Below, piece after piece: positions 26,260 through 47,087 of a stretch of 64,000 nt of DNA. Position 1 is the stretch's first letter. Each line of letters opens with the position of its first letter. This DNA is from a virus. Under the pieces are notes generated by a model. The model saw only the letters and a list, made by a program, of their open reading frames with translations, did not search any database and was not told the origin of the DNA. The position numbers and the translations under genes are program-made. Location: IMG/VR virus record IMGVR_UViG_3300030098_004740, positions 1 to 64,000 of that record. One strand, written 5' to 3'.

Positions 26260-28538
26260 TGCCTGTTTCATTTACTAACGCAACTGACGCTGATCCTCAG
26301 TTTCTTACACCAGCCCCTTTTATTAATATAAACAAAGATTTTGATAAACAGGGTGATGGAGAAATATTAGGAGCGAGATATAGTATAACCCTAACTGGAA
26401 AAATGATAGCTGATAGAGGCTCTCCTATTGGTATATCTGCCACAACTGCTAATGAGGGTAAGTTTTTAACTACTGCTGCTGACGCTTTGCAACAATTATC
26501 TAGTGGAGATCCTATACCCGACACTCGCTGGTACGAATCATTACAGATAAAACAAAAAGCTTTAAGTAATTTAATTAGCAAGCTACATGAAGGTGCTTAT
26601 CTTGAGGTTACAAGCCCCGGAGATGTAGGTGGAGGTTTTAAAGCCTTTGTCAAATTTGAAAGCTTAGACTTACCCGGACATGCTCCCGGTCAACCCTACT
26701 TGTCAGATTATACTATCAATTTAACTGCTGATTATCTCATAGGCCCAGATGGTAACATAGCTGAAGATGATTTTGAGAATCAAGGATTATGGCTTGTTTC
26801 TTCTGCTAGTGAAAATTGGGACATATCAGAAATAGACAAAAAAGTTTACGATTGGCAAAATGCAAGAAGTAGTGGAGCTGAAGCGCTTTACAAACCTTTG
26901 AGTAATAGAACTCTTTATCAGTTAACTAGAACTGTTAATGCCACTGGTAAGTCTAAGTTTATAAGAAATAATACAAAAGCTGATGGTCTTACTACAAACG
27001 ATCTTGGAGGAACTAATGATCCATCAAGCGACACTAGAAAGTTTAACCAAAAATATGCACCAAATGGAAAAGCTTGGCAACAAGCTAGAGGTTTTGTTTA
27101 TGACGTAATCAAGTATGGTGACGACTTCATTACTGGAAAAGACGGAACTGCTTATAACGCTACAGAAGGTGATGACCCTGCTTGTTATGACAGAGTGGGA
27201 AATCGTCTCTATAATGCTGGAGGGGAAGGTCGCGTTCCTGAAACATCTGCCCATACCTCTGGAACATGCGCTGAAGCTGGAGGTATTTGGAGAACAAAAC
27301 AAAAACCCGTAAAGCCCACTGGCAATTCGTCAAGTGCTGTAGATGCTGATGATCCACATCTGTTTGGAATGAATCTTCCAAACCCCATTACTCATAGTGC
27401 TGATCATCAGTATGTTGGTTTTGATTATAAAAGAACACAATCTGTTGATGTCAGAGGTGGTACTTTTTCTGTTACTGAAACTTGGATTTTAGCACCTGCT
27501 GATTCTCAAGCTACTGAGTCTATATCGTTCGACTTTGCAGAAGATGAGCAAGGTGTTGTTTCTTGTACAGTAAATGGAACTATCGAAGGTCTTTATAGAA
27601 CTCAGGGTAGAGACAGTTCAGTAACAGACCCTCCTCCATTAGGAATGAATTACAGCGTTGGTACAATTAGCGGAACGTATAATGGTCCAGAAGGTTCTGA
27701 CAATAGCAAACTAATAGCGGCTGAAGTTAGATATAATTCTATACAAGCTTTAATGTATCAAACTGTATACAACGAAATGTCTAGAATGATAGACCTTTCA
27801 GGTTTAAGTGTAAATCCACAACCAGTTTCAAAGAGTGTTGCCAAACAGCCAGATACTGGCATTATTACTTACAGTATGACTTTTAATACAAGGACTATAA
27901 ATTTTATACCCTTTGTAAAGAATGAAGATATTAGTCTTAATGATACGTATCCGGGTTATGTTGCTGCACAACATCAAGTATTAGGAAGACGTACTGGTCC
28001 AGTACTACAGTCTATAGGAACTCAAACAGAGTGGAGAAGAGACTTGACTATAAGTTGTACTGTTGATACTCATAGGACTCATTTGTGCGTAGATAGTCAA
28101 GGTGAAGTTCACCCAATAACAGATCAAGCAGCATGTGGTAATACTCCTGATCCATATTCAGGATATTTGCAATGGATACCAAATCCAAATTCAATTGTAA
28201 ACTTTGCTGGAAGCAACAGATATATGTCGCAAACTAGACCTTCTGCTGGTATAGACACTTATGGTACTAATTTCCCCGCTGGATTAAATGGTTCTCAAAG
28301 AGCCGCTATAGTAACACTAATCAACTCCTTTAATCCGGGAAACATGGGACTCTTTGGAGTCAAAAAATATTTTACAGAAGCACCAACAGAAAGTTGGAAT
28401 CCAAAGACTGGACAATGGTCTTATAGCGTAAGTTGGGTTTATGAAATGAAAGACCCATACGCTTTCCCAACGACAGATTACATGAATGGTGCATTCAATG
28501 ACAACCTTGCTGGCCCTTATCCCGGAATGATGATCTAA
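26259..28538 (+). CDS. Putative tail-tip/distal tail protein
   Basis: Downstream of the TMP; LTPAP..YSITLTG, GTFSVTETW, ESWNPKTG.WSYSVSW beta-rich patterns. Confidence 0.5.
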   Translation: MPVSFTNATDADPQFLTPAPFININKDFDKQGDGEILGARYSITLTGKMIADRGSPIGISATTANEGKFLTTAADALQQLSSGDPIPDTRWYESLQIKQKALSNLISKLHEGAYLEVTSPGDVGGGFKAFVKFESLDLPGHAPGQPYLSDYTINLTADYLIGPDGNIAEDDFENQGLWLVSSASENWDISEIDKKVYDWQNARSSGAEALYKPLSNRTLYQLTRTVNATGKSKFIRNNTKADGLTTNDLGGTNDPSSDTRKFNQKYAPNGKAWQQARGFVYDVIKYGDDFITGKDGTAYNATEGDDPACYDRVGNRLYNAGGEGRVPETSAHTSGTCAEAGGIWRTKQKPVKPTGNSSSAVDADDPHLFGMNLPNPITHSADHQYVGFDYKRTQSVDVRGGTFSVTETWILAPADSQATESISFDFAEDEQGVVSCTVNGTIEGLYRTQGRDSSVTDPPPLGMNYSVGTISGTYNGPEGSDNSKLIAAEVRYNSIQALMYQTVYNEMSRMIDLSGLSVNPQPVSKSVAKQPDTGIITYSMTFNTRTINFIPFVKNEDISLNDTYPGYVAAQHQVLGRRTGPVLQSIGTQTEWRRDLTISCTVDTHRTHLCVDSQGEVHPITDQAACGNTPDPYSGYLQWIPNPNSIVNFAGSNRYMSQTRPSAGIDTYGTNFPAGLNGSQRAAIVTLINSFNPGNMGLFGVKKYFTEAPTESWNPKTGQWSYSVSWVYEMKDPYAFPTTDYMNGAFNDNLAGPYPGMMI

Positions 28539-31500: not shown

Positions 31501-33997
31501 GGGTCTATATAGCAAAGAGTGCATAGGAATAAGTCACAAATATCCTCATAGTACTCATTGTGAAGCAATAGCTGGTTTCACTGATCCGGCTACGGGTACT
31601 AAATATCGTGTAGGAGACTGGCTTCCATCTACTACAGCTGATGGCTGTAGAGACAGATTTGGCATAATGTTTGTCAAATGGGTAAACGCTATGACACAGT
31701 TTCCAACAAACCCAATTGATGATAAATTCTATGGACAAACTATTCCTGTAGACAAGATACCTGCACCGGGATATGTAAATACTAGATTTAGATATACAGG
31801 AGTCTGCAAGACTCATTTTAGAAATCAGCCAGTCACTAACCTTCTTACTCAAAAAAATATAACTGATAAGTTTGATTGTCTTAATGGGACTGGAGGATTA
31901 CATTATTTTGACGAAGACGATGTAGATAGTATTCCTGTAATGGCTAAGTCTGCAACTATTCCTATTGATTTAGGATCTATAGGATATGACCAAGGTCCTC
32001 TTGGATCGAACAATATTCCCGGAGGTGCTACAAATTGGTATTACGCTACTATTACTGAGTTAAGACACGCTGCTGTAAGCAAAGACTCTTGGACTGCTTA
32101 TCTGAGAAACTTGGGACAAAAACTTCCTTGTTCCATGTGGGCTATAAATCCAGTTCCACAAAATGCTTGGTCTGACTTCTGCAAGAAAGCAGATGAAGTA
32201 ATGTTCAAAGGAGGCACTAGCAAAGCCCATTTAGCAATTGCAAATAACCTAAATTATTTTGCATCTGGAGGTGCTTCAGGTTCGCCAACAATAAATAGCG
32301 ATGTCATAAACCATGCTGGTAATCCAAGCGAAGCTAATGCAAAGTCTGCTACTGGACATCCCTGCGGAGACGCAGAAAGAAATGCTCTTAGTTTGGGTGA
32401 AAGAACTCAAATGGAAGTAGACATTGCTTATCAAAAAGTTCAAGAGGCTGCTACTCAATTTTATGGAAGACGGTACTTAGTGCCATTACCCTTCAATCCA
32501 CCAACTTCACACACTTGTAGCAATCTTGTATACAAAAATCGAGCAGACTGCACAGACAATGGGTATGATTGGGGTCCTCATGGAATGCTAAGCGAATGGT
32601 TCCAAAAGATGGGCGTTGGACAATGCTCAGATGGAGTAAGCGCTGACAAGTTTACTTGTGAAGTAACTAATAATTCTTTTTGGATAGAACCTATTAAACA
32701 CATAAACAAATGGGATATAAATACTTCAGGATGGCCGGGAGGTTCTATAGATTACCAATGGGACGAAACAAAGAACACAGGCTACCCACAGAATATAAAT
32801 TTCTGGACTGAAGACGGGAATTTGGAACCATTTGTTGTATTTCCTTCACACGAAAGAAAAAGATTCAGCGCAGATGCTTCAAGATTAGATTTTAGAAATT
32901 ATGACCCAGAAACAATTCATGAATCAAAGTCTAATGTCGGCCCTATTGCTGGTTGGGGAACTAAAGTCTTTGTTAAAGCCAATGTAGATCCAGAAACTCA
33001 CTGGATACCAGAAAGAGCTGCGTGGGAAATACAAAACGAAAAACAGTTTGCAATGTTTAGAGATGGAGATCCAGATGGCGGAACCGATCGACAAAAAAGA
33101 CTAAACCAGCCAGCGAATCATTTAGCGATTGGAACGCTTGATAATTCAAAATTCCTAACAGAAAGAGAAGTCTATGTAAGAGAAGTAGACCAAAACTCTG
33201 CTGATTATTTTAAGGAAACAGCGGCTTATAAACCTTATGCATTAATCACATTACCAAATCAAGTTCTTTATGGAGATATGGACCAAACAACAAAATTCCA
33301 TCCTGATATTGGAGAAGGTAAAGATATGTGCATACCTTTGATAAAAGCTAAAAACTCTAACGCTTTAATGAGCGCTTGGTTGCAAGGCATGGACAGAGGA
33401 GGAATTGTTGGTCAGCAATTAGTGGCTATGGCAGGCAACTTAAGAAATGCTCCAGTTGTGTCTCCCGATATGGGGAGAGGCTCTTTACAAGCTGCTGCTT
33501 ATAAGCCTTGGCACGCAGCTATACCTCAACAAAGTAAGCATTTTAAATGGGGTCCTTGGGCTTTAGGAACGGGTTTTGGAAAAACTGACTATCAAGTAGA
33601 CACAAGCATACAACCATCAGCATTTGGTGGAGAAAAGGCCATGGCTAATTATGCTATGTCTGGCATAAAAACTACACTTCAAAATGTAACCCCTTATATT
33701 GAGACTGGAAGCGTGACATTAGCTGGCTTACCAGCACACGCGTTTGCAACTCAAATAGTTTTGCCAATTAATGGAGTAAATTTGTTAGGTCCATTTATAA
33801 CAGATATATCTGTAGCAATGGGTGCTAGTGGACTTACTACTACATACAACTTTACAACACAAGAAAAATTTGCTGATATCGACTCTATCAACAGACAAAG
33901 GATCAGAAAAAATCAAGAGGATATGTTGAAGATGCTTAAACATACAGAAGAGCAAATTGCAAAAACAAAAAGAGACATATCAAAGTATATTAAATAA
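28538..33997 (+). CDS. Large tail hub/tip protein with Cys-rich insertions
   Basis: N-terminal SFMGLSI.DF..STLSLNLV, YSVTLSDPR; C-terminal ETGSVTLAG..ITDISV..GLTTTYNF hub-like; many Cys modules. Confidence 0.55.
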   Translation: MPFTGLMSDEVFQQSFMGLSIMDFTVNAGLNSSQSTLSLNLVADDGYFDAYHTLDTLPMTYPTVSWGGSSGPFGTGFGGGFFMGTTTVNVGIRDAVTEGYHPWDPNAFPATLIQKYGGVTGVKQNYAMNGDVAWLPPPGSPVYFKYYGTGNLNNACVKDRNCTPVFHFNGILGNYEKSFSTGGLTYSVTLSDPRKILENTLVILDGETGRVAAADEHYLKGTANVTNKRKYEHGWNGYYNIINVFGYYESHGFNKSRKNDQGIAWFEAKNGKQFTNHYGINHHFGVLPAIDFIASGTNDEYIKKLEPYGGPAYYGVDDRNLATYAPFSEQLNGDGVYRYAIDLSALYDLSKYYNPNPPAKGVIDDNFRINGENISLLQLIEKVCEAAGADFMVEMYAPRLGEPFYATHKDYAGIIRIIPIPRNIEVELGVLEKAIDLSQQTPSVGPFVDSEQHSILIDSSVGYEFTDPVQGKILFGAPRTRVVGVTPLGDRKTRDELFYNATTKKYIDGNPTEGTDDILREYMPSIELDGVTLHTQALPADSFQDRSEYGWNPETDLLREGGKDVLPDFEQNLPMVSNDDFLPYHFAEDVSGRNYDEADPYQFGRANSKFYETGSQCFITPPATEGSPFVISNYCTEEYDATQAAGGRAAEPHGNPKQICTNESTCTAADYCDGEWKTIEDAQGCTDAGVMYFFFYGDPSLSSQNVGQYKKVDSGLGSGYLDMFPCWGFHKTEYNSASSLLKDDINKSIKGQPIKGMFWDDDPYRDFHPIDGIFGVFDWINPGLGKCRSVEDFVDPATGQTNPNTAKGKILPALENMPLLCECDYMTAAIDDDCYTFRNSIGVKARGKFEPACEPRKRCEAQPSGDEVTDLHAGTAGVENNLHKIKFSCENACFLADANGNPTGNAVVAYYTEDVGTKTKGQAANVNDNEWMTNPPGTKGSKIKLISDKEDCEIESVSGTQTKRVVGNIKSDGSLTTGADQNKFIAEGGLYSKECIGISHKYPHSTHCEAIAGFTDPATGTKYRVGDWLPSTTADGCRDRFGIMFVKWVNAMTQFPTNPIDDKFYGQTIPVDKIPAPGYVNTRFRYTGVCKTHFRNQPVTNLLTQKNITDKFDCLNGTGGLHYFDEDDVDSIPVMAKSATIPIDLGSIGYDQGPLGSNNIPGGATNWYYATITELRHAAVSKDSWTAYLRNLGQKLPCSMWAINPVPQNAWSDFCKKADEVMFKGGTSKAHLAIANNLNYFASGGASGSPTINSDVINHAGNPSEANAKSATGHPCGDAERNALSLGERTQMEVDIAYQKVQEAATQFYGRRYLVPLPFNPPTSHTCSNLVYKNRADCTDNGYDWGPHGMLSEWFQKMGVGQCSDGVSADKFTCEVTNNSFWIEPIKHINKWDINTSGWPGGSIDYQWDETKNTGYPQNINFWTEDGNLEPFVVFPSHERKRFSADASRLDFRNYDPETIHESKSNVGPIAGWGTKVFVKANVDPETHWIPERAAWEIQNEKQFAMFRDGDPDGGTDRQKRLNQPANHLAIGTLDNSKFLTEREVYVREVDQNSADYFKETAAYKPYALITLPNQVLYGDMDQTTKFHPDIGEGKDMCIPLIKAKNSNALMSAWLQGMDRGGIVGQQLVAMAGNLRNAPVVSPDMGRGSLQAAAYKPWHAAIPQQSKHFKWGPWALGTGFGKTDYQVDTSIQPSAFGGEKAMANYAMSGIKTTLQNVTPYIETGSVTLAGLPAHAFATQIVLPINGVNLLGPFITDISVAMGASGLTTTYNFTTQEKFADIDSINRQRIRKNQEDMLKMLKHTEEQIAKTKRDISKYIK

Positions 33998-34014
33998 CGC
34001 TATGGAATAATAAG

Positions 34015-35805
34015 ATGGCCACAGATAAACAACCTGTAAACGACCAAAGGTCTGAAACAGATAAAAATGACTATAGTCACTTGATGCTAACTAGTGCTAG
34101 TTATCCAGAGCAAGACATACCTATTAGAGATGCCGCTAATAATGTTTTGTTTTGGGATAATCATCCTGACTATGCGGGAAAGCCTATAAACGCTTTTAAT
34201 GCATCTACTACTACAGCCACTGGACCAGTTGCATCTTTTATGGATCAGTTTCCAAGCGATAAGGCTTGGCATAATGCTGGAGGTATGTCTATTGATGGCT
34301 TGTTTGTTCCTTATGCCACAAACTTTGCCGTAGTTAGCACAGGTGGGGAAAGAAAAAATCTGAACAAAGCTCCAGACACTTCTTCAATGCCTACTTTTGA
34401 AAGGCCATATAGTGTTGAAAAAGGAGGCGAACCATCAGACCAAGTTGATTTTGTAAACTACAATACAAAACTAGGGGCTGCTGCACCATCTCCCGCCACA
34501 ATAGACTCCGCTTCTCTTAATCCATTTGCTTCCGGCCACTATATACAAATGGTTAACAAGGAAAGTAAACAGGTTAGTCCCAACACAGACGTTTCAGGGT
34601 ATTCTAAGCATTCTTCTCCTTTAGGAAAACCCAATGTTAAATCTACTGAAACAGAAAGACCAATAGGTCTTAGAGGTCCGATTGTTATTGCTGGATGGGG
34701 TTATGATGCTATTACTTCGCATCCAGTTCCTAACTTAAGATACGACTCTGATTATAGACATAATGAACCAAAGAGCGCGAATTATGGTAGGCAAAGGTAT
34801 GCTCCTGAGACCATGAAGGCTAGGACTGCTAGCGGTATGCAGCAAGACCATAAGCATTTTACTCCTTTTCATATGAGAAGACCTGACAAATGGAAAGCTG
34901 GCCCTGTTGACTTAAGATGGGATCACAATAGAAAAGTTTGGGTTGGTGGAAAGCACAATGGAATATTTTTATCAAAAGCTACAAAGTGTATACTTCCAAA
35001 ATCTGGTATAGATGGTAATAACTCTTTTAACTTTGGCGTTGGTGGTAATATTAATGCTCCCGGAAGATTATATAGAAACCCATGCCCAACGCATAACTGT
35101 AATTATCATTCATACTTTCCAACAAGTATCTATTATCCCGATATAGAAATATATGACCCAGAAGATCACAACTGGTGTGGTAGATGTAGAACTATAGGGA
35201 CACAAACAGCATGTGGAGACTTCAAGGATGGATGTTCTCCTTTTTATGATGCAATTATTTTAAGAGCTGTAGATGAACAAGTAGGGAAAAATAACGAGCT
35301 TATTGAATGTACTGACAAGTTTAGAAAAGTGCAAGGCGGTACTCCTCAAGCAAGAAGAGCTGGAAACCCTTGTCATGGATGGGGTTCTAGTAAATTTGGA
35401 ACTGGTGAGTTTATTAATGAAAAAATAGGAGATGACGAAGTTTGGACAGAATATGCTAAAGCTTTGTTGTATCAAAAAATATTCGTAGAAAACCCTCTAG
35501 GTCAAGGGTTAATGGTAGGGGATGCATTTTTTAGTTATGATACTGGTAGGAGAATAGTGTATGAATATGAAAGAACAGATACCGCAGCTTGTGGAAAAGG
35601 TGTTGGTACAAAAGTAAAAGTAAAGGAATCTATTCCTGTACATGTAATTTTACAGGGCGAATTTTATGGAATGGAAGTAATTTCACACGCAGGTTGTGAT
35701 AGAGGTGAAATGGGTTCTTGTTCTAGAAAATTCTTTGCTCAAGGCTTTGCAACTGGAGAAGATTGTGGGCCAGATGATGACTATCCACAAACAGCAGGAT
35801 CATAA
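34015..35805 (+). CDS. Putative tail protein with Cys-rich C-terminus
   Basis: LRGPIVIAGWGYD..WKAGPVDLRWD..VW; operon context. Confidence 0.5.
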   Translation: MATDKQPVNDQRSETDKNDYSHLMLTSASYPEQDIPIRDAANNVLFWDNHPDYAGKPINAFNASTTTATGPVASFMDQFPSDKAWHNAGGMSIDGLFVPYATNFAVVSTGGERKNLNKAPDTSSMPTFERPYSVEKGGEPSDQVDFVNYNTKLGAAAPSPATIDSASLNPFASGHYIQMVNKESKQVSPNTDVSGYSKHSSPLGKPNVKSTETERPIGLRGPIVIAGWGYDAITSHPVPNLRYDSDYRHNEPKSANYGRQRYAPETMKARTASGMQQDHKHFTPFHMRRPDKWKAGPVDLRWDHNRKVWVGGKHNGIFLSKATKCILPKSGIDGNNSFNFGVGGNINAPGRLYRNPCPTHNCNYHSYFPTSIYYPDIEIYDPEDHNWCGRCRTIGTQTACGDFKDGCSPFYDAIILRAVDEQVGKNNELIECTDKFRKVQGGTPQARRAGNPCHGWGSSKFGTGEFINEKIGDDEVWTEYAKALLYQKIFVENPLGQGLMVGDAFFSYDTGRRIVYEYERTDTAACGKGVGTKVKVKESIPVHVILQGEFYGMEVISHAGCDRGEMGSCSRKFFAQGFATGEDCGPDDDYPQTAGS

Positions 35806-38800: not shown

Positions 38801-41800
38801 TACTACAGAGGATGAATGTGACGAAGCTGGAGGCAGCTGGAGTCCTGCTAAGTTTGTACCATGTTGTGAATGGTTTGAAGAATGTAGCGAAAGGATAGTG
38901 ACAAATCATCAAGATGCGGGTGAATTTGGAATGGGAGCAGAACCAAAGTATCGAGATGCTGTAGACAAAGCTGAGTGTGAAAAACACCCAGATCAAGGCG
39001 GTGCTGGAGGTGTTTGGAGTGGAGGTTGTACTCCCGGTGTTGGACAAAGACAACAAAATCAGCTATGCGGTGAAGTACAAAACCCTCCAGAAGACTTCGT
39101 TGATATTGTTCTAGGCGAACAGTTTGGAACTTGCGTTTTACATAAAGATGGTCAAAATGCAAACATAACCGATATGTCAAAATCTGACTGCGGTGAAGAG
39201 TCAATGAAGCATGAATGTAGAATCATTCTTACTGGCATAGTAGTTAATACTTCACAGGATGCTTGTGAGCTTAATCCATTAACTGAATGGGTTCCAGTGT
39301 ATGACCAAGATCCTGCTCCTAAATTTGAACCAGACATGATTGGCCACTTCGATAGTAAATATCCAAGACGAGAAGGACCACTAACTAAATTAAGGGAGGC
39401 TGGTCCTTTAACTGGCTCGCTTGCAGATGTAAGCCAAATGAAAGGGGGATTCATTGAGCGACAGCCGGGAGTTAGTGTGGACTTCCCCTCTGGAACAGCA
39501 AAAGAAAATCCTCTTAACTACTGGCATAGGACTGGTTTATACCCAAGAGGAGAAACCGCTAGCTATGTTAGTGATGGTTGTGTTGGTGTAAGTCATAGTG
39601 GGAGAATTGAACATGCTTCAAATACTACCCCAATCAAGATTACTTCTAGAAGTCATGGATTAAGAAACGGCGATCTTATAATGACTCAAGATGTTCTTGG
39701 AAACTTTGCTGCAAATGTATTTTTGTCACAAAGAGACGTAAAAGAGATTCAATGGGAAGATAAGCTTGCTGGATCTTGTACTGGAGACAATTGTGATGAT
39801 CAAGCTTACCCAGCATCTGAATGTTTGTTTGAAGGAAAGTGTCTTGATTCCAGCGGAAACGACACTGGCGAAAAAGATAAGTCTAAGTGCAACTCAGCTG
39901 CGGGAAATACTTGGGAAGAAGTATGTCCCTCTGAATATTTAGCTTGTTATGGCTTTAGAGTCCCCGGAAATATGGAGCCACAATACGCTCCTTTTGCAGT
40001 AGTGCAAAATGCAACAGCTGATACTTTTGATTTGTATACGTGTGATAATTTGCCACTTAAAGGCACTTTAAGTACGGGCGCAATAAAAAATCTACCTGAA
40101 TCTGTAGACACACATGGACAAGTCATAGAATGTGAAGGAGTTGGAAATGCAAGTGTTTGCTTTTGGGGTTATTTTGCACAATTCACAGGGTATTTTGGAG
40201 GGGAAATAAATCCTATCAATCCTCCTCCTTTGACATTAGGTACGGAAGTCACTGATGATCCTACTGTAAATGCTGGAAAACCCACAATTGGAAAGTGGGC
40301 AGCTAGATGTATTGCCTACGATAGCGGAAAGGTTATAAACCAAGCAGATGACGCTAGGTCTGAATACAAGTTTAATCCTTTCGCAGTATTAACCGGCGCC
40401 CCTATTAATGAAAACTACACCTGTGGTGGAACAATAGCTGATGGAGGGCATTGGTGTGGTGCAAGCGATTGTGATAGTCGTTTTGGAAAATGGATGACTG
40501 AACAAGAGATGGCGGATAACGTTCTTACGAAGTCAAAAATAGAGGGTTCTAAAGAAGTATGTGAGTCTTATGGTATATGTAATATTATAAAAAATGCTCA
40601 AGAAAAAGCGCCTAAGTCAGTAATGACAAAAAGTGATTGCAAGAAACTATCTAAAGTTTATCATACTTTGGATTTGGATGCTGGATACCATGACGATTCG
40701 CAAATTTATGTTGAAAGATGTCAAGACGCAGATGGGAATATAGATAACAGTCCAGAAATTCAAGACGCTCTTGATATAAAAAAGGCTTGTGAAGAAAGAG
40801 GTTCTTGTTCTGAAGCCTTTTTTGGTAACAAAAAAGATTGTGAAGGAAATGGCTTTATATGGAATGGTGGAACATATATCAAAAAAGCCAATAACTGCGT
40901 AGGCGACGAAATGGAGGGGCAAGATAATGATCTTTGCTGGACACCAAATGTCTTTGGTACAGAAATAGACCTTAGTAGTACCAGTGGTGGAGGTCTTGGA
41001 AATGACCGACCACTTCCAAACTATCCGGTGTGTCCCTATACAGGAACTTGGGAAATATTCCATCAAGACTTGGGAATAGCAGCTGGATATTTCACTGAAA
41101 ATCAGTTTGATTCTATTTATAGATTTGGATGGGGTGGATTAACAAGAAGATGGGAAGAAAGAGCTAACGATTATTACATTCAAATAGAGCAAAAAGGTAT
41201 ATGTCCTGTTTGTTGTGATCATTTTCTACCAGAAACACTAACTGCCACTATTAGTGATACAGGCAGTAGTCTCCAAGACATTGTTGGCGGATGTCCAATA
41301 GATCCATGTGAGGCTGGCGATTTTATATTTGATGATGATGCTACAGCTAGAGGTACAAGATCAGGATGGAAAAAAACAAGTGGGAAATTTAGCGGTTCGT
41401 TTGATGGATATTGTTGCAGTGATTTTTATCACCCTTGCTCGATACCAGAAGATGAATTAACAAAATGCATTGCTGACCCTACCCAGTTTGGCCATTGTTA
41501 TAGAGTGAGTAATGCAAGTGGTCAAGAACCCGGACTTTTAGCTGGTGCGTATACAAAAGATGAATGCGCAAAAAGAGGTTCTGGCGCAGGAGGTTGTAGT
41601 AAAAGCGGAATTTGTACAGTAAATCCTCAAGGAAATCAAACTCCAGCAGATTGCGAAGCTGCCGGAGGAACTTGGAGTCCTGTCACTGATCAGACAGGAT
41701 GTACAAGCGCAGGAGGTACTTGGACTCCTAGAGATGGTCATACTAAATTCTATCCATTGCCAGCTGGTAGTTGTGAATTTCCTCATCCATTTGTAGATGC

Positions 41801-44800
41801 TGATGGCAATGTATTAGAAACAATACCAGATGATGCACAAACCGATAAAGCTTCATGCGAAAGAGAATATTGTTCTTTTGATCAAATTGATAATCAACAA
41901 GATTGCGAAAACGCCACTGATGATCAAGGAAATCCAGCAGGTTATAAATGGATGCTAGGAAGTTGGTCTGAAAACACTAAGGAAGAATCTGCTTATATCT
42001 GTGAAGATTTTCTAAGAAAAAGACCAACACAAGCTTATGATGATAGGTATCCAGAGACAGCAAGAAATTGTAGAAAATGTTCTAACCTATACAGTGACCA
42101 AAATAAAGCTCCTATTAAAAAAGAATTTGCAGGGTGTGGTTGTGATTGTCTTGTAAATCATGTTGACGCGCTTGCTTTTGAAAGGTATCCTACCTGCCGA
42201 GAGGCTATAGGTGGTTTACTACCAGATTGCACTCCAGAAATCTTAGGTCAACAACATACACTTGGCACAGCAGGCGCGTTGTTAGCTGTTTGTACGGCGG
42301 GTACTGGATCTCCGGCGGGAACAGGAACTGGCACTGAGGTATATTATTATTGGTCATTTGATCCTTGTCAATGCTTCCCTCAAAATGTTCCTCATAAGTG
42401 CATCGGTGATCATATACCTTTAGAATATGGAAACAGTTGTGAAGATGATGGAGTTGTTTTACCGTCCAATAATGTCGGAGGTTGTTATAATTCAAGTAAT
42501 GCTCTTATCTTAACCAAAACTGTTGAGCATGGAGCCAGTTGTAAAGATGGTATTGGTAGCATTGTTGCTGGTGTAACTACTAGAGATGAATGTATTTCTA
42601 TAGCTGGTCGAGTTTGGAATACAACAGCTTTAGATTGCGACACAAATGCTGGTGAGTACTTCAAAGCTGGTAACAAATTGGAATGTGGTGTAGTCGAAGT
42701 ATCAACAGATGGTTATTCGGCTCCATATTCTCTACCAAACTCTGCGCAGCCTCAATATGAAACATGTCCCGGTTTAGGAGCAATTGATGTTTCATTGAAA
42801 TATGATGGTTCTGTTTGGCGTTCTGATTGGACTCAAATGGGAGCAGTTGGGACAAAACAATGCAAGATGGGTCAACATAGATTCGTCTTCTCTCCCAACT
42901 GTAAGAGTACCGGACAGAGTCCATCAACCGCACCGAAAGGTTATGCTTTCCGTTCTTCGTCTGATCTAGTTGCAATAAACGCAGATTGTGGAAATTGCGA
43001 TGCAGCACAATATTCTTATCAAGGCGTTAGGGTTTTTGGTCATGACCCACTAAACTATACGTACAGAGGACATGAATTCCCTACAGATGTAAAAGACAGT
43101 CATTATATTAGACTTGTCATGGGTTGTGGAAATAGCGTATCAAGCATAACACCAGAAGACGCAATGGTAAAACAAGGAGGTTTTGGAGGAGGTAGGCACA
43201 CTTATAGAGACAATGGAATAGAAATTTATGCACAAATAGCCAACTGTACTTTCTATGACTTTGACGCGAGCGAAGGTTTAAGGTTTGGAAGAGTTAATGA
43301 GGGTACTAGCGGACAACCTCCATGCCATGGCAGCAATTGTATAAGCAAAGCTAAAACTTTTGGAGATTGGACGGAAACTGGCAAACCGACGATTAGTGAA
43401 AGAATATTCAGTTTTGCTGGAAGATGCATAGATGGACGAGCTAATTGTGGAAATCAAGGGCCTTGCGCAAAAATTGCAAGTTGTTGTGTATATACAGGAA
43501 GAGACGTACCTTTACAGACTGGCTTGGATGGTCAATCATTTCCGTTATGGAGTGGTGGAGTAGCCTGCACTACAGGAGGTGACATTGAACACAGATGTAG
43601 TGCTTGGGGTTACGATCCGTTTCCGAAAAAACCAGCAGAAGTATTCACTGTTTATTATGTAAAAGAAATACATGATGATGGAAGTGCAACCCTTGTTGTC
43701 AACAAGGGTATGGGGTGTTCTTGGCCCAAAGGTACTGTTGTAGGCATTGGTCACGCTGAATTACTAGACGCTGAAAATGATGACTTTGGTAGCACAACAA
43801 GAAACAACATGCCCAGAAATCCTTTTTTGCCAGCAGGAGCTACTCATCTATTAGGAAGTAGAGTATTTAACTACGATCAAAAAAGTTCTGGCGCTCCTAT
43901 GGTGCTGTCAGATAGATGGGAAGTTTATGGAGAGTTTGATAATAAGACATTTGCTACCGAATATCCAATAGATGTAGAAGACCCTGCAATTCCTGATGGT
44001 AGAGGCAATCAGTTCACTCTTGGTCGTCCAGAACGTGGAAATACTGGTTTTATGGAAATAACAGTCGCAAGTATTGAGCCTCTCATAAGTAAAAACCCCA
44101 GACAAAATAGGCACTTAAAAATTTATGATAGAAGTGGAATATTAGATGCTAATGGAACATTCGATCCTAAAGACGCAGACATGCTTCCAAATCGTGATTA
44201 TGCACATCCATTTGGATTAAATCCATGGCCTGTAGGAGTTCAAAATCATTCTTCAACTGGTAGAACGCAAGACATGTGGCCTAAAGGTGTTCCCATGGGA
44301 TGGGAAAACACTGAGCATTTGAGAAAAGATCCTGTCGCTGCTCATACAGCTTTAGGAAGAGTTGGACTAAAGCCAACGGCTGAAAATTTAAACATGCTAT
44401 CTGTTTATAATGAGGTATCACAAGGAAATACGACAACTCCGATCCCATTAATCATGCCAGTAACAACAGTCATGATTAATTCGATTGATAACGTTTATGC
44501 AACAGATGACGAAGATGGAACTTGTGTAGGAAAAGTAGCATACACAAAACAACAATGTCAATCTGGAGGAGCAAGCGCAGGAAGATGGATTCCTAGATTC
44601 CTTTATACAAAAGCTACAACTGGACAACCGCACGACATAAGTGATGGCGAAAAAATAATTGTCAGCGGATCTGTCGCCTATCCAGCTACTTGTAGAGGGA
44701 CTAGGCTTGGTTATTGCCATGGAGATGTCTCGTTAACCATTAACGAATGCATGAAAGGTGTTTGCAAGGACGTTCAACATCCAAATGGTTTTGGCATAAC

Positions 44801-47087
44801 CGGATCAATAAAAAAATATCATATTGATCCAGACACAAACAAACCTTGGGATACAGAACATGACTGCTCAATAGCGAGTGAGCAGAAAAGACAAGATTTA
44901 ACTTCAAACGGCTGGGATCCAGATGGCACTTTTACTAAAGATCTAGTTTTCACTCCTAATGGACAATGGGTTCAAGTATATGAGGATCACGAAGCTGACG
45001 AACAAATATGCGAAGCTTTTGGTGGCGGATGGGTAGTTGGAAAAACCAATAATAAACAAGACAATAAAGGGCTATACGAGGATCCAACAAATGATTTTCC
45101 TGATGATTTAGATAACAAAGAAAAAGATTTTGTTCAAGGTTGTCCAGTAAATTGTCAAATTAATGGATTTATGATTCAAGATGCTTGTACTTCGCATTAT
45201 GATTATGGTCAATGTTATGAGTGTCTCTTGCTAACAATAAAAGATGATCAAGGAAACGAAACTGAAGAATCCAGATGTCCTAGAGCTGAGCATGATGGAA
45301 TGTACATAGCAAGGACGAATCCTGAAAGATACTGTCAAAATACTAATTATGATCCTGACTTTTCTAGCACTACAAATGGAAATCAAAGAAAACAAGCAAT
45401 AGCCAATGCAAAGATAGAATGCATCAGAGCTGGTTTTGACTGGTATGGAGATGTACCACTTTCGTTAAAAGCAGATTCTAATGGAAATGAGCATTCATTT
45501 GAAATAGCTCTTCATGGCGAATTTAATATGGATTTTGTTGATGGGGCAAAAATCTATGGAAGCGAAAGAGTGCCTCTTAGAGCAATGACTAAAGGTAGAA
45601 ATGTTAAGAGTGATTGGCAATTAGATGTTGAAGTCCACGAAGGAATTATTGTTGATCCTTTGGGTGACTTTAAAGATGATGCTAACTACACAGTACCAAT
45701 AACAAAAGAAGAGTGCTTAACAGTAAGAGAACATGTGTGGATAGACACAACACCTGCTCGTCCACCTTCACCGTTTGGAAACACACAAACAAAAGGCACT
45801 GCAAATCAAACTCCTCTAGTGTCTTCTGCGTTTACTTCTGGATTTGGATATAAAACATATGGACAAGCAGGAACTAGTCCAACAGGAAACGTAGCAAACG
45901 GAACTGTAGGAGAATGTGTTTACATCAGAAAAATAAGACGGTTCATGGAAAATTGGATTCCCCGTACAAACAATACTGGCGTTTCCTTAATACAAACTAA
46001 TGAGTTCCTTGAGGAAGATGTTGACGGAAATGCTGCCAAGATAGTATCTTCTCTTCAAGACGCCTGCGTAAGATCAGACAATTGTATATTAAATAAGAAG
46101 TTTGGTTGGTGTATGGATCTTACTGAGAATACACTTGGAACTTGTTATGAATATCTTCAAAACGGCGGAACTTGGAGAGAATCAAATCAACCAGCCAATA
46201 AATGTACTGATATATTTGTAGGACAACAACAAGTTATAGGCTCTAGCACGTTAACCACATCTTTGAGCGAAAGAGAAGCATGTGCAACAAAAGGTATGCA
46301 GGCTTATGGTGGAGGGATTGGAACTACGGTAAGCTCTACTGCTGTTGTAGATGATTTTGAATGTATGGATCCTCAAGTGCCTGCTTATCAGTCAACTTTT
46401 TCTTGTACAGTTAGTGATCCAGTCACTCAACAGCCTTATACAGATGAGTTTTCTTGTATCGTTGGTGGAGGTCAATGGATTGAGACACCTCCAGCAAAAC
46501 CAATAAGAGGTGCTGGAATGACTGAAAGGGTTTGTAGAGAAGTAGCATTAGGACATCCAGTCTACAAGAATAATCAAGGAGAAGTTATATCGCCTGCTCC
46601 AGAATATGGGCCAAGTACAATGAACAAAGCCTTCCTTGATTTACAAGCATTGTCTTCAAAAGAGGCCATTGCTATGGGTCATGAGACTGGTATAGGAGAG
46701 ACTCAAAGAGTTTACAAAGGTGTAATATACGCTCCTAATATTGAGAAAAATCAATTTATGGGTGGTAAGGAAATAGAAACCTATACTAAATATGGAGTTC
46801 AAGAAAATGAAAGAGCTGTATGGAGCAGACATGGCGGATCTTTCGATATAATTGTAGGGTATCCACCACCGGAAAATAATTGTAGAGACGCTAATTCAAC
46901 CGGACCTGTAAATCTAGATTGGCATTTAGGGTTTGATCAAATATGTTGCAATGTTAGAGGTCCTTTGAAATTTTATCAATGTGCAGACAGATGTTATCAT
47001 AATTACGAAGGTCCTTTAATTACAGATTTAGAGCAGGATTTTAAAACAACTGGAGTGTCACATCTGATTGTAAATGTTCATGATTGA
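35805..47087 (+). CDS. Giant (3760-aa) Cys-rich virion/adhesin-like protein
   Basis: Uninterrupted 11.3-kb ORF coupled by TAATG; many CxxxGGxW modules; ITSRSHGLRNGD-type phage beta domain. Confidence 0.65.
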   Translation: MAIGDFWDTSYNPIYEYGSNPLKNDRTGKYQWGPDYSDIVPQTSVGSLKRRQKGRFCSEGCGCVNTYCDSMLLPEGQYGCHLPPELSITVVRNPNGRYEAKGEIEGGGGETIHLKYSKGSWRGRRCCTSNAYGQLEYACDPCKVTTLPNGKPSECHPANNKFKDFGKNSHISQKSDNFTIRDDFDYDEALKGGSNWPRLGENAWLKLSVYNVTAPTTGTDMLRDTTFDGFASLCFDASGLPVKGIGNEGDCLKNSGYHWSEKTPVWINNDINDEDDVAGNGGHIQLIGTEEVPTKFSIDVKADEVVTNIKSREKTIKVTKDGYLDNYSINNGADPNDRVSTTKLNYYDPTSEDRGCLVDGSMPLKKRPYCRNAITGKRIQQQCEEVTGVNAGFGSGFSITKEKEDCEATSSSINGYCSISDPVTQQPYPDEASCNFASGTWVWEDNKWLYDDQTTCEDAGSCLAPKTDKFQSQEDRIVGAYCLDIVSGTKDPVPQNKAECEAQGHGIWKLGDSSSCTASYKEGSPVCNDIDGKDSGHADEDSCLAAGNTWMKNEWFSNQWVDWEYEKLSCCGETLLDHNYPSRTPQISGSTLSARKNPSCTTPYHEVILSPYQAGQNINTESYHSCIAAVNQWQRDDNTDTEFFMNTISYWTLVIRPCNFHGGCQDENVKRPDPQDLIDNKLDNYYDTTCGEEIVLYLSTDQLVNCSNLNLTIENENQIRSGWKEAQPMWHKSIGDTKGNPANLQFLMPGADSSMISGSSSYEFSYPGDAMYKNQYKHWCNNPDVNVDGIGDGGVCSQYHYWNSGFPKVQLANPKGIDAFYGFNLQPQPFKATEEKQNRAKLLYTAAVDHNTWQACAGHILGDANGGGHWFWNYGPDYFMYFDFLAYDEIHSFNPVAIKNDSPKCTAVATKAKEYVDSHVGFLRRGDCGYGNGPLWVGWIPDYDSWTNNKICPDCGSKGKNNCESEGGCLNADGSFETDQTDCSEKGQCNSPVGTKTTHTTEDECDEAGGSWSPAKFVPCCEWFEECSERIVTNHQDAGEFGMGAEPKYRDAVDKAECEKHPDQGGAGGVWSGGCTPGVGQRQQNQLCGEVQNPPEDFVDIVLGEQFGTCVLHKDGQNANITDMSKSDCGEESMKHECRIILTGIVVNTSQDACELNPLTEWVPVYDQDPAPKFEPDMIGHFDSKYPRREGPLTKLREAGPLTGSLADVSQMKGGFIERQPGVSVDFPSGTAKENPLNYWHRTGLYPRGETASYVSDGCVGVSHSGRIEHASNTTPIKITSRSHGLRNGDLIMTQDVLGNFAANVFLSQRDVKEIQWEDKLAGSCTGDNCDDQAYPASECLFEGKCLDSSGNDTGEKDKSKCNSAAGNTWEEVCPSEYLACYGFRVPGNMEPQYAPFAVVQNATADTFDLYTCDNLPLKGTLSTGAIKNLPESVDTHGQVIECEGVGNASVCFWGYFAQFTGYFGGEINPINPPPLTLGTEVTDDPTVNAGKPTIGKWAARCIAYDSGKVINQADDARSEYKFNPFAVLTGAPINENYTCGGTIADGGHWCGASDCDSRFGKWMTEQEMADNVLTKSKIEGSKEVCESYGICNIIKNAQEKAPKSVMTKSDCKKLSKVYHTLDLDAGYHDDSQIYVERCQDADGNIDNSPEIQDALDIKKACEERGSCSEAFFGNKKDCEGNGFIWNGGTYIKKANNCVGDEMEGQDNDLCWTPNVFGTEIDLSSTSGGGLGNDRPLPNYPVCPYTGTWEIFHQDLGIAAGYFTENQFDSIYRFGWGGLTRRWEERANDYYIQIEQKGICPVCCDHFLPETLTATISDTGSSLQDIVGGCPIDPCEAGDFIFDDDATARGTRSGWKKTSGKFSGSFDGYCCSDFYHPCSIPEDELTKCIADPTQFGHCYRVSNASGQEPGLLAGAYTKDECAKRGSGAGGCSKSGICTVNPQGNQTPADCEAAGGTWSPVTDQTGCTSAGGTWTPRDGHTKFYPLPAGSCEFPHPFVDADGNVLETIPDDAQTDKASCEREYCSFDQIDNQQDCENATDDQGNPAGYKWMLGSWSENTKEESAYICEDFLRKRPTQAYDDRYPETARNCRKCSNLYSDQNKAPIKKEFAGCGCDCLVNHVDALAFERYPTCREAIGGLLPDCTPEILGQQHTLGTAGALLAVCTAGTGSPAGTGTGTEVYYYWSFDPCQCFPQNVPHKCIGDHIPLEYGNSCEDDGVVLPSNNVGGCYNSSNALILTKTVEHGASCKDGIGSIVAGVTTRDECISIAGRVWNTTALDCDTNAGEYFKAGNKLECGVVEVSTDGYSAPYSLPNSAQPQYETCPGLGAIDVSLKYDGSVWRSDWTQMGAVGTKQCKMGQHRFVFSPNCKSTGQSPSTAPKGYAFRSSSDLVAINADCGNCDAAQYSYQGVRVFGHDPLNYTYRGHEFPTDVKDSHYIRLVMGCGNSVSSITPEDAMVKQGGFGGGRHTYRDNGIEIYAQIANCTFYDFDASEGLRFGRVNEGTSGQPPCHGSNCISKAKTFGDWTETGKPTISERIFSFAGRCIDGRANCGNQGPCAKIASCCVYTGRDVPLQTGLDGQSFPLWSGGVACTTGGDIEHRCSAWGYDPFPKKPAEVFTVYYVKEIHDDGSATLVVNKGMGCSWPKGTVVGIGHAELLDAENDDFGSTTRNNMPRNPFLPAGATHLLGSRVFNYDQKSSGAPMVLSDRWEVYGEFDNKTFATEYPIDVEDPAIPDGRGNQFTLGRPERGNTGFMEITVASIEPLISKNPRQNRHLKIYDRSGILDANGTFDPKDADMLPNRDYAHPFGLNPWPVGVQNHSSTGRTQDMWPKGVPMGWENTEHLRKDPVAAHTALGRVGLKPTAENLNMLSVYNEVSQGNTTTPIPLIMPVTTVMINSIDNVYATDDEDGTCVGKVAYTKQQCQSGGASAGRWIPRFLYTKATTGQPHDISDGEKIIVSGSVAYPATCRGTRLGYCHGDVSLTINECMKGVCKDVQHPNGFGITGSIKKYHIDPDTNKPWDTEHDCSIASEQKRQDLTSNGWDPDGTFTKDLVFTPNGQWVQVYEDHEADEQICEAFGGGWVVGKTNNKQDNKGLYEDPTNDFPDDLDNKEKDFVQGCPVNCQINGFMIQDACTSHYDYGQCYECLLLTIKDDQGNETEESRCPRAEHDGMYIARTNPERYCQNTNYDPDFSSTTNGNQRKQAIANAKIECIRAGFDWYGDVPLSLKADSNGNEHSFEIALHGEFNMDFVDGAKIYGSERVPLRAMTKGRNVKSDWQLDVEVHEGIIVDPLGDFKDDANYTVPITKEECLTVREHVWIDTTPARPPSPFGNTQTKGTANQTPLVSSAFTSGFGYKTYGQAGTSPTGNVANGTVGECVYIRKIRRFMENWIPRTNNTGVSLIQTNEFLEEDVDGNAAKIVSSLQDACVRSDNCILNKKFGWCMDLTENTLGTCYEYLQNGGTWRESNQPANKCTDIFVGQQQVIGSSTLTTSLSEREACATKGMQAYGGGIGTTVSSTAVVDDFECMDPQVPAYQSTFSCTVSDPVTQQPYTDEFSCIVGGGQWIETPPAKPIRGAGMTERVCREVALGHPVYKNNQGEVISPAPEYGPSTMNKAFLDLQALSSKEAIAMGHETGIGETQRVYKGVIYAPNIEKNQFMGGKEIETYTKYGVQENERAVWSRHGGSFDIIVGYPPPENNCRDANSTGPVNLDWHLGFDQICCNVRGPLKFYQCADRCYHNYEGPLITDLEQDFKTTGVSHLIVNVHD

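What the first reader, a model, noticed from the sequence alone, without database searches (positions are those of the whole stretch)
27170..46480. A small CxxxGGxW cysteine module has spread through several tail-tip proteins
Seen: CAEAGGIW (ORF 26259); CTDNGYDW and CEVTNNSFW (ORF 28538); and in the 3760-aa ORF CNFASGTW, CEAQGHGIW, CLAAGNTW, CDEAGGSW, CNSAAGNTW, CEGNGFIW, CEAAGGTW, CTSAGGTW, CISIAGRVW, CEAFGGGW, CIRAGFDW, CIVGGGQW. Most are preceded by another Cys about 8-16 aa earlier. Established: cytoplasmically assembled phage virion proteins are usually Cys-poor. No signal peptides are evident here. Inference: a disulfide- or metal-stapled mini-domain used as a repeated adhesion or armour unit. 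Similar motifs are familiar to me from Planctomycetota-type extracellular proteins, a weak host hint.
Basis: partly seen in the sequence, partly recalled or inferred. Interest (0 to 1): 0.72.

Follow-up and report, generated by a model that had tools for sequence, protein, structure and literature searches.

The report
Two-cysteine staple module in tail proteins
The CxxxGGxW motif is real: it is half of a small two-cysteine module, not in Pfam, NCBIfam or PHROGs, that occurs in many phage particle proteins and secreted microbial proteins, and about 11 copies sit in a 3760-residue, 167-cysteine tail-tip protein of an uncultured marine phage that is probably held together by about 80 disulfide bonds.

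Summary
C-x5-7-W occurs 21 times against 7.4 expected, and a profile finds 11 solid copies. Protein D has one solid copy and protein C only a marginal half-motif.

The full unit is C1-x10-17-[T/N/D][K/Q/E]xxC2-xxxGG-x-W. AlphaFold predicts strand, loop, short helix carrying C2, GG turn, then a strand starting at Trp.

F belongs to a collinear family of at least 29 giant marine-metagenome proteins with 3.7-5.3 % Cys. Cysteine is their best conserved residue, and cysteines are gained and lost in pairs. CxxC is not enriched. This favours disulfides over metal sites.

The module is not special to this phage. A profile search finds it in 117 protein clusters, including J-like tail fibres, baseplate wedge proteins, prohead proteases, pilin-like proteins and lipoproteins. 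The best solved match is T4 gp8 residues 140-162, which is weak (E 0.21). No Pfam, NCBIfam or PHROG model covers the motif.

The Planctomycetota host hint is not supported; the host is unknown. Module loops are not hypervariable, so I read the module as a structural staple rather than an adhesin.

This scan noted similar Cys-rich giant tail proteins before on other DNA (e1-5903780, e1-5884230).

The parts
15799..23367 (+). Tape measure protein (2522 aa, 0 Cys). Anchors the tail module upstream of the Cys-rich genes.
   Evidence: PF10145 and tape-measure PHROGs. Cys count.
23377..26259 (+). Protein B, 960 aa, 0.73 % Cys. Sits where a distal tail protein (Dit) usually lies and carries a Laminin_G_3 insert.
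   Evidence: Pfam PF13385, E 3.9e-11. The Dit role is inferred from position only.
26259..28538 (+). Protein C, 759 aa, 6 Cys. Start codon overlaps the stop of B. Tail-tip position.
   Evidence: Weak match to Ig_J_second (E 0.006). Synteny is conserved in the loci.
27264..27296 (+). C aa 336-346, CAEAGGIW. Marginal half-motif with no partner Cys.
   Evidence: 2.8 bits with the independent profile A3.
28538..33997 (+). Protein D, 1819 aa, 32 Cys (1.76 %). Conserved neighbour of E and F.
32495..32584 (+). D aa 1320-1349, one solid module (C-x10-C, then TDNGYDW).
   Evidence: 28.7 bits. Recurs in D homologues in L003-L006 and L012 and in P0071.
34015..35805 (+). Protein E, 596 aa, 13 Cys. No module.
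   Evidence: E homologues carry 13 or 14 Cys in 28 of 30 loci.
35805..47087 (+). Protein F, 3760 aa, 167 Cys (4.44 %). Last and largest gene of the tail-tip operon. Member of a collinear family of giant Cys-rich proteins from marine metagenomes.
36480..36596 (+). F module, aa 226-264.
   Evidence: 33.7 bits. Predicted strand 226-235, helix 248-252, strand 258-268.
37026..37139 (+). F module, aa 408-445. Appears to be inserted inside an older helix-to-Trp unit.
   Evidence: 45.6 bits. Alignment A6. pLDDT 69-79.
37221..37340 (+). F module, aa 473-512. C482 and C500 are lost together in 8 homologues.
   Evidence: Predicted strand 481-484, helix 497-502, strand 506-509.
37356..37469 (+). F module, aa 518-555. 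C543 is invariant.
   Evidence: Predicted strand 526-528, helix 540-545, strand 549-551, with pLDDT 83-91.
38742..38855 (+). F module, aa 980-1017. C983 and C989 are lost together in 16 homologues.
39813..39923 (+). F module, aa 1337-1373.
   Evidence: 33.0 bits.
40782..40874 (+). F module, aa 1660-1690.
   Evidence: 25.4 bits.
41586..41729 (+). F modules, aa 1928-1961 plus a half copy at 1961-1975. Cys 1931, 1937, 1950 and 1966 are absent together in 24 of 28 homologues, so this is a clade-specific insertion.
42519..42626 (+). F module, aa 2239-2274.
   Evidence: 18.9 bits.
44931..45044 (+). F module, aa 3043-3080. It lacks C1. C3069, G3074 and W3076 are nearly invariant across the family.
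46389..46493 (+). F module, aa 3529-3563. A duplicate of the module at 408-445, present only in close relatives.
   Evidence: About 80 % DNA identity in the core. Loss pattern.
47113..47730 (+). Protein G, 205 aa, 7 Cys (3.4 %), directly downstream of F. Function unknown.

Best explanation
CxxxGGxW is the C-terminal half of an independently folding mini-module of about 22-38 residues: C1, then 10-17 residues, then [T/N/D][K/Q/E]xxC2, then xxxGG-x-W.

Predicted fold: a strand carrying C1, a variable loop, a short capped helix with C2 at its centre, a tight Gly-Gly turn, and a return strand that starts with the Trp. I infer that C1 and C2 form a disulfide pinning the helix to the hairpin, with the Trp packing on it. 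In a minority of copies the partner Cys lies 13-15 residues downstream instead.

Because the unit is small and closes on itself, it tolerates insertion into surface loops. In this marine long-tailed phage lineage (siphovirus type) it has been inserted repeatedly into F, by intragenic duplication and possibly inside older copies. It is fixed once in D.

F as a whole is a globular, beta-rich distal tail protein cross-braced by roughly 80 disulfides. The modules account for only about 30 of its 167 Cys.

Function (inferred): covalent stapling that keeps an exposed 3760-residue tail-tip protein folded and protease-resistant in oxygenated seawater. Specific receptor recognition seems less likely.

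Timing (inferred): since there is no export signal, the bonds must form late in infection or after lysis by oxidation. Help from a phage thioredoxin-fold protein with a DsbA-like CPHC site is speculative.
For: What is shown:
- The motif is enriched and the Cys-to-Trp distance is sharply peaked.
- The profile finds 11 copies.
- The AlphaFold model of F 1-760 has pLDDT 70-91 across residues 400-570 and repeats the pattern strand, helix (with C2), strand (with W) in four modules. The same secondary structure appears in the isolated fragment.
- Cysteine is 96 % conserved among close homologues, the highest of any residue. 88 of the 167 Cys are kept in at least 27 of 29 family members.
- Cysteines are lost together in exact pairs: 482/500, 983/989, 1110/1129, 1325/1330, 2115/2199, 2987/3021, 3177/3206, and the long-range pairs 68/626 and 80/706.
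- Between invariant Cys anchors, blocks whose Cys count ranges from 3 to 47, 2 to 18 or 1 to 13 keep their parity in 28-29 of 29 sequences.
- Homologues of F 395-575 carry 6, 8, 10, 12, 22 or 26 Cys in 27 of 29 slices; two short slices had 5 and 7.
- Whole modules appear as indels, and there is duplication at the DNA level.
- CxxC is not enriched; the enriched Cys spacings are 6, 11 and 16.
- Outside phages the module lies in exported proteins. One Methyloceanibacter peptide is only about 24 residues after its signal peptide and has exactly two Cys.
- 91 % of 243 instances have the upstream partner, most often as C-x10-C.

Evidence that these are virion proteins:
- The operon runs tape measure, B, C, D, E, F with overlapping or adjacent genes.
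- The same gene order is kept in about 40 loci.
- Four F homologues carry an M23 peptidase domain.
- Cys content rises along the operon: 0 % (tape measure), 0.7, 0.8, 1.8, 2.2, then 4.4 %.

There is precedent for disulfide networks in phage tails in phage Milano (PMC10811340).
Against: - There is no direct chemistry. I had no model coordinates, so no S-S distances were measured.
- Overall AlphaFold confidence is only 58-60.
- The virion is assembled in a reducing cytoplasm, and the held 61 % of the genome has no Erv1 or DsbA.
- The module also occurs in prohead protease/scaffold fusions that act inside the cell, where a disulfide is not expected.
- A few copies lack C1: F 3043-3080 and the His-rich ZnuA/EF-hand proteins.
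- D and E do not show clean Cys parity.
- The total Cys count is odd in 23 of 29 family members, so at least one Cys is unpaired or plays another role.
Confidence: 0.62

Rival explanations
1. Metal-binding module. The two Cys of a module, together with a His or Tyr in the loop or with Cys from neighbouring modules or subunits, bind Zn or Fe. This would stabilise the protein in the reducing cytoplasm without any oxidation.
For: - Assembly is cytoplasmic and there is no signal peptide.
- The position 5-6 residues after C1 is often His in phage copies.
- Some hosts of the module are His-rich ZnuA-like or EF-hand proteins.
- F has knuckle-like clusters outside the modules: C57-x3-C-x-C-x4-C, CPVCC and CPVNC.
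- The module occurs in intracellular prohead proteases.
Against: - Cysteines are gained and lost strictly in twos, not in threes or fours.
- CxxC is not enriched (6 observed against 6.7 expected).
- The aromatic position is Y, H or F interchangeably, so it is not a conserved ligand.
- The minimal secreted peptide has two Cys and no His.
- Bacterial copies lie in exported proteins, where disulfides are the rule.
Confidence: 0.15
2. Adhesion module. The variable C1-C2 loop is a ligand-binding surface for glycan or Ca2+, and multiplying the module raises avidity for the host envelope.
For: - The loops are rich in D, S, T, G and N, and some resemble DxDG-type Ca2+ loops.
- The host proteins are distal tail proteins, fibres and pilin-like proteins.
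- Copy number differs between clades.
Against: - Among close relatives (72-87 % identity) the modules are as conserved as the rest of F, 0.765 against 0.794. There is no hypervariability.
- The same module occurs in prohead proteases and tiny secreted peptides that have no adhesin context.
- No lectin or carbohydrate-binding family matches.
Confidence: 0.13
3. Redox trigger. As in phage Milano, the disulfides lock the tail tip and must be reduced at the host surface before DNA ejection.
For: In Milano, sheath and baseplate disulfides must be reduced before contraction (PMC10811340). The Cys-rich proteins here are the most distal ones.
Against: Most inferred pairs are within one chain and local, which is typical of fold stabilisation. 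There is no evidence for bonds between subunits. Reducing about 80 bonds seems an implausible trigger.
Confidence: 0.05
4. There is no real module. The motif is a by-product of a Cys-, Gly- and Trp-rich composition.
For: - By count, D and C are not above chance.
- No fold match was found in PDB or BFVD.
- The match to T4 gp8 is not significant on its own (E 0.21).
Against: - No shuffle in 2000 reached the counts observed in F.
- 117 proteins reach E <= 1e-3 in a library of 1.84 billion, and many of these unrelated proteins carry 2-11 copies.
- 122 of 126 viral CEAAGGTW sites have the partner Cys at a fixed distance.
Confidence: 0.03

Closest known systems
T4 baseplate wedge protein gp8 (PDB 1N7Z, 5IV5; Pfam PF09215), residues 140-162
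   Same: It carries one copy of the motif, C142-x10-C153 followed by LKLGGKW, in a phage baseplate protein. It is the best PDB hit of the module profile. A second T4-like gp8 (9F4A) and a gp8-family protein in the global search also match. T4 gp10 has a half-motif.
   Different: E is 0.21, so this is a lead and not a demonstrated relationship. F has no gp8 domain. gp8 has one copy and F has 11. I could not check whether C142 and C153 are bonded in the structure.
Cyanophage P-SS2 ORF084 (2612 aa by the GenBank CDS, 2613 in the paper's Table 2; Sullivan et al. 2009, PMC2784084)
   Same: It is a giant, extremely Cys-rich protein (282 Cys, 10.8 %) in the tail module of a large marine siphovirus, downstream of the tape measure. 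Mass spectrometry detected it in virions, with 43 in the peptide column of the paper's Table 2. This shows that such proteins are true virion components.
   Different: It has no detectable homology to F, D or C and no CxxxGGxW modules. The paper does not discuss its cysteines (0 occurrences of 'cysteine').
Disulfide network of Agrobacterium phage Milano (PMC10811340)
   Same: Disulfides that stabilise a phage tail and baseplate have been shown experimentally.
   Different: Milano uses a few inter-subunit bonds in the sheath and baseplate of a contractile tail. Here there are about 80 mostly intrachain pairs in one giant protein, and a repeated module.
Lambda-J-like central tail fibre proteins (PHROG 31, PF09327 Phage_Tail_Tip)
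   Same: Many uncultured J-like fibres (743-2120 aa) carry one canonical copy, GYC-x14-CEAAGGTW, just before a conserved ATAVKQVS segment.
   Different: They have a single copy and are otherwise Cys-poor (2-5 Cys). They are not homologous to F.

Membership tests
Two-Cys 'C-x10-17-C-xxxGG-x-W' mini-module (no curated family; defined here by profile A3) | Match to the profile with C2, the GG turn and Trp in register | tested here: met
   11 copies in F at 19-46 bits and one in D. 117 proteins reach E <= 1e-3 in the 1.84-billion-protein library.
Two-Cys 'C-x10-17-C-xxxGG-x-W' mini-module | A partner Cys at a fixed distance that is gained and lost together with C2 | tested here: met
   122 of 126 viral sites have the partner.
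Two-Cys 'C-x10-17-C-xxxGG-x-W' mini-module | The C1-C2 disulfide is actually formed | not testable with these tools
   No coordinates or chemistry were available. The bond is inferred from evolutionary pairing only.
T4 gp8 family (PF09215) | Homology across the whole domain | tested here: not met
   Pfam scans of B to H give no PF09215 match. Only the 23-residue motif aligns.
Zinc ribbon / zinc knuckle | Paired CxxC or CxxH ligand motifs | tested here: not met
   Six CxxC observed against 6.7 expected. Each module has two Cys 10-17 residues apart.
Cystine-knot, cysteine-stabilised alpha-beta (CS-alpha-beta) or EGF-like small disulfide domains | At least three disulfides with the characteristic spacing (CxxxC...CxC, or six-Cys EGF) | tested here: inconclusive
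   No Pfam match. Fold searches give nothing significant. The module has only two Cys, which argues against membership.
Sec- or Tat-exported phage fibres | N-terminal signal peptide | tested here: not met
   No hydrophobic N-terminal segment in B to H.
   102 genome stretches spread over many phyla. The one Phycisphaerae hit lacks the module context.

The most novel reading that the evidence does not exclude
The C-x10-17-C-xxxGG-x-W unit is an ancient mini-domain that no curated family covers, and one of the most widely shared building blocks of phage particle proteins (J-like fibres, gp8- and gp10-type wedge proteins, prohead protease/scaffold fusions) and of exported proteins in many bacterial and archaeal phyla.

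In this marine siphophage lineage it proliferated inside a tail-tip protein of about 170 Cys. The roughly 80 disulfides of that protein cannot form in a normal cytoplasm. This implies an obligatory oxidative maturation step for the virion, either after lysis or catalysed in the cell by a phage thioredoxin-fold protein with a DsbA-like CPHC site.
Probability: 0.3. Interest if true: 0.75.

Novelty: new variant of a known kind. Interest (0 to 1): 0.55.

Why it matters
Tailed phages build their particles in a reducing cytoplasm, and textbook virion proteins are Cys-poor. In this genome the 2522-residue tape measure has no Cys at all. A conserved family of 3000-4200-residue tail-tip proteins with 130-215 paired cysteines raises a concrete question that can be tested: when and how do about 80 disulfides form? 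It suggests that marine virions may mature oxidatively outside the cell.

Separately, the module is a compact fold element that tolerates insertion and recurs across phage fibres, baseplates and secreted microbial proteins, yet no Pfam, NCBIfam or PHROG model covers it. A curated model would label a recurring motif in many proteins now listed as hypothetical. It could also serve as a small stabilising insert in protein engineering.

Tried and rejected
- Pfam and PHROGs on proteins B to H: only Laminin_G_3 in B and a weak Ig_J_second in C. Nothing for D, E or F.
- Pfam at E <= 10 on module-rich pieces: only chance-level matches to PMR5N, BORA_N and DUF4789.
- PDB sequence search with F and with D: nothing.
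- Self-BLAST of F: no long internal repeats.
- GenBank phages: no DNA match for F and no protein match for F, D or C.
- IMG/VR search with F: none.
- GTDB genomes with the F-family alignment: none.
- ESM Atlas with F 400-570: no usable hit.
- Foldseek against PDB and BFVD, and VIA-wide, on both models: no match above noise.
- Literature search for 'CEAAGG': no paper.
- Host inference from the phage epimerase: only marine-metagenome relatives, no named host.
- Erv1 and DsbA families in the genome: absent, but only about 61 % of the genome is held.
- One align_proteins run on 95 proteins failed. The module alignment was too loose for the search for related loci.
- Cys parity in D and E: not clean, so I did not use it as evidence.
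Full report
**Context.** The window is the first 64 kb of a single 92.6-kb contig, an IMG/VR virus record that CheckV rates about 61 % complete. It has about 37 % G+C and no tRNA genes. A + strand virion operon holds an S74-chaperone tail fibre (7117-9321) and a 2522-residue tape measure (15799-23367; PF10145 and tape-measure PHROGs). Six tightly packed genes follow: B (960 aa, Laminin_G_3), C (759 aa), D (1819 aa), E (596 aa), F (3760 aa) and G (205 aa). Cys content rises along this series: 0 %, 0.73, 0.79, 1.76, 2.18, 4.44 and 3.41 %. The upstream virion genes from 4932 to the tape measure are mostly 0-1 % Cys (one 163-aa ORF has 3.1 %), and the genome outside D to G averages 1.26 %. None of B to H has a hydrophobic N-terminus.

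**The observation.** In F:
- C-x5-7-W occurs 21 times against 7.4 +/- 2.4 in shuffles.
- The strict form occurs 9 times against 0.65.
- The Cys-to-Trp distance histogram has a sharp peak at +7 and +8.

Aligning the sites shows a longer unit whose consensus is close to C-S-x-x-G-x-C-S-D-x-G-x-x-x-x-x-Y-T-D-E-x-x-C-E-A-A-G-G-T-W. A profile (A3) built from 46 instances in this phage and its relatives finds 11 solid copies in F, one half copy, one solid copy in D, and only marginal scores for CAEAGGIW in C and CEVTNNSFW in D. The modules hold roughly 30 of F's 167 cysteines, so F is Cys-rich throughout and not only in the modules.

**The F family.**
- F has 29 homologue clusters of 3004-4216 aa. 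All have 3.7-5.3 % Cys and are collinear over the whole length, with variable segments around aa 1925-2066 and 3300-3600.
- Four homologues carry an M23 peptidase domain.
- 43 metagenome loci, from Tara Oceans and marine JGI samples, keep the gene order C-D-E-F.
- There are no relatives in GenBank phages, IMG/VR or GTDB genomes. This is an uncultured marine lineage and its host is unknown.

**Disulfide or metal?**
- Cysteine is the best conserved residue: 96 % among the seven full-length homologues (53-87 % identical to F), ahead of Trp at 90 %.
- Where cysteines are lost, they are lost in exact pairs. Local pairs are 482/500, 983/989, 1110/1129, 1325/1330, 2115/2199, 2987/3021 and 3177/3206. 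Long-range pairs are 68/626 and 80/706.
- The long-range pairs fit the model, in which N-terminal strands (85-126) and strands at 604-699 are the parts that structural aligners match to small beta-barrels. That makes residues 225-570 a large insertion.
- I counted Cys between the 63 invariant Cys columns. Blocks whose count varies widely keep their parity: 3 to 47 is odd in 28 of 29 sequences, 1 to 13 is odd in 29 of 29, 2 to 18 is even in 29 of 29, and 0 to 12 and 0 to 24 are always even.
- Homologous slices of F 395-575 carry 6, 8, 10, 12, 22 or 26 Cys in 27 of 29 cases; two short slices had 5 and 7. The alignment shows whole modules, each with both cysteines, inserted or deleted.
- CxxC is not enriched (6 against 6.7 expected). 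Spacings of 6, 11 and 16 are enriched.

Gain and loss strictly in twos is what disulfide partners predict. Three- or four-ligand metal sites would not behave this way. I therefore favour disulfides at about 0.6-0.65. The caveats are that no chemistry or coordinates were available, and that the total Cys count is odd in 23 of 29 proteins, so one Cys is probably free or has another role.

**Predicted structure.** AlphaFold2 on F 1-760 with a 30-sequence alignment gives a mean pLDDT of only 58.5, but 70-91 across residues 400-570. In four modules the pattern repeats: a strand with C1, a loop, a 5-6-residue helix with C2 at its centre, the GG turn, and a strand starting at Trp. The isolated fragment 395-575 folds with lower confidence but the same secondary structure. 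Neither model matches anything in PDB or BFVD above noise.

**How the copies arose.** Modules 408-445 and 3529-3563 share about 80 % DNA identity over their 50-nt core, and the second exists only in close relatives. This indicates intragenic duplication. In alignment A6 the module at 408-445 sits between an older capped helix (KEDC406) and its closing Trp (W448). This is compatible with the 'nested insertion' reading noted by another first-stage reader for this same stretch. Among relatives 72-87 % identical, the modules are as conserved as the rest of F (0.765 against 0.794). I see no sign of the hypervariability typical of receptor-binding loops.

**Distribution.**
- Profile A3 against 1.84 billion representative proteins gives 117 proteins at E <= 1e-3. 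Most are unrelated in length (49-7030 aa), and many carry 2-11 copies.
- The general consensus is C-S-x-P-x-[YHF]-T-[TN]-[QKE]-x-x-C-E-A-A-G-G-T-W.
- Of 40 hits examined, contexts include Phage_Tail_Tip, Gp10_D3, Phage-Gp8, Mtd_N, baseplate wedge, tail fibre, distal tail protein, central fibre J, and ClpP-like prohead protease/capsid fusions. Cellular contexts include prepilin N-terminal methylation domains, ZnuA-like binding proteins, EF-hands and multihaem cytochromes. Several have signal peptides or lipoprotein signals.
- Named members come from Methylococcaceae, Halobacteriovoraceae, Acidobacteriia and even Symbiodinium.
- 122 of 126 viral sites have a Cys upstream within 9-19 residues (printed examples: 10-14). 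Cellular sites with the helix-cap context mostly have the partner 13-15 residues downstream. One example is a Methyloceanibacter peptide that is only about 24 residues after its signal peptide and has two Cys.
- Only one hit is from Planctomycetota, and it lacks the module context.
- No Pfam, NCBIfam or PHROG model covers the motif, and the string CEAAGG appears in no indexed paper.

**Closest solved example.** The best PDB sequence hit of the profile is T4 baseplate wedge protein gp8, residues 140-162 (C142-x10-C153, then LKLGGKW), at E 0.21. A second T4-like gp8 follows at E 3, and T4 gp10 has a half-motif. This is a lead and not a proven relationship. Whether C142 and C153 are bonded in 1N7Z is the cheapest decisive check.

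**Precedents.** Phage Milano shows that disulfide networks can stabilise tails (PMC10811340). Cyanophage P-SS2 ORF084 (2612 aa by the GenBank CDS; 282 Cys by my count) is a virion protein verified by mass spectrometry in a marine siphovirus tail module. It is not homologous to F and lacks this module. Other windows of this scan have noted similar giant Cys-rich tail proteins.

**Thiol enzymes.** The genome has two adjacent thioredoxin-fold genes outside the window (G000 85525-86086, minus strand). One has the classical WCGPC site. The other has WCPHC, which is the DsbA active-site motif (my knowledge), and no signal peptide. According to earlier first-stage notes that I did not check, ribonucleotide reductase genes lie a few kb away, so the pair may simply serve that enzyme. 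A role in oxidising F is speculation. Erv1 and DsbA families are absent from the held part of the genome.

**Verdict.** The motif is real and is the visible half of a two-cysteine staple module that has multiplied in F. The disulfide reading is well supported by evolutionary pairing but remains unproven. The module is common in phage virion proteins and exported microbial proteins, yet no curated family describes it. The Planctomycetota hint fails. A structural cross-bracing role is more likely than specific adhesion.

Noticed in passing
G000:C1:85525-86086 (minus strand, outside the window; locus L044 1158-1740): Two adjacent thioredoxin-fold genes. The 93-aa protein has WCGPC. The 98-aa protein has WCPHC, the DsbA-type active site, and no signal peptide. 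They may serve the phage ribonucleotide reductase, or might act on the Cys-rich tail proteins.
   Followed up: partly
window 47113-47730: Protein G (205 aa, 7 Cys) lies directly after F. It has a C-x-C...C-x3-H-x-C cluster and a C-terminal CGC, and its only family match is an unknown-function PHROG (32048). It could be an assembly factor for F.
   Followed up: no
window 35973-36011 (F aa 57-68): The cluster C-x3-C-x-C-x4-C. The first three Cys are invariant across the family and C68 is lost in 11 homologues together with C626. It looks more like a metal knuckle than a module. Similar clusters are CPVCC (aa 1800-1804) and CPVNC (aa 3113-3117).
   Followed up: partly
L044 2312-2950 (G000 about 86664-87302, minus strand): A 212-aa protein with a duplicated unit of about 45 aa: TGACWEGY-x-RVPNTKKGEPGSC.
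   Followed up: no
Loci L016, L017 and L020, homologues of F 395-575: In these relatives the same region is 309-333 aa with 22-26 Cys, against 181 aa and 12 Cys here. Several extra modules have been inserted at one hotspot.
   Followed up: partly
Cellular loci L052, L064, L065, L117 (Methyloceanibacter / Hyphomicrobiaceae): A tiny secreted peptide consisting of a signal peptide followed by GPDNQADCEAAGGTWNAESNTCTQ. It appears to be the minimal free-standing form of the motif, with a downstream partner Cys.
   Followed up: partly
IMG/VR loci such as L182, L198, L207, L221: ClpP-like prohead protease/scaffold fusion proteins of about 420 aa carry two canonical copies of the module. This is unexpected for proteins that act inside the cell.
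   Followed up: no
window 15799-23367 versus 35805-47087: The tape measure has no Cys in 2522 residues, while F has 167 in 3760. Cys content rises steadily from the proximal to the distal tail genes.
   Followed up: yes
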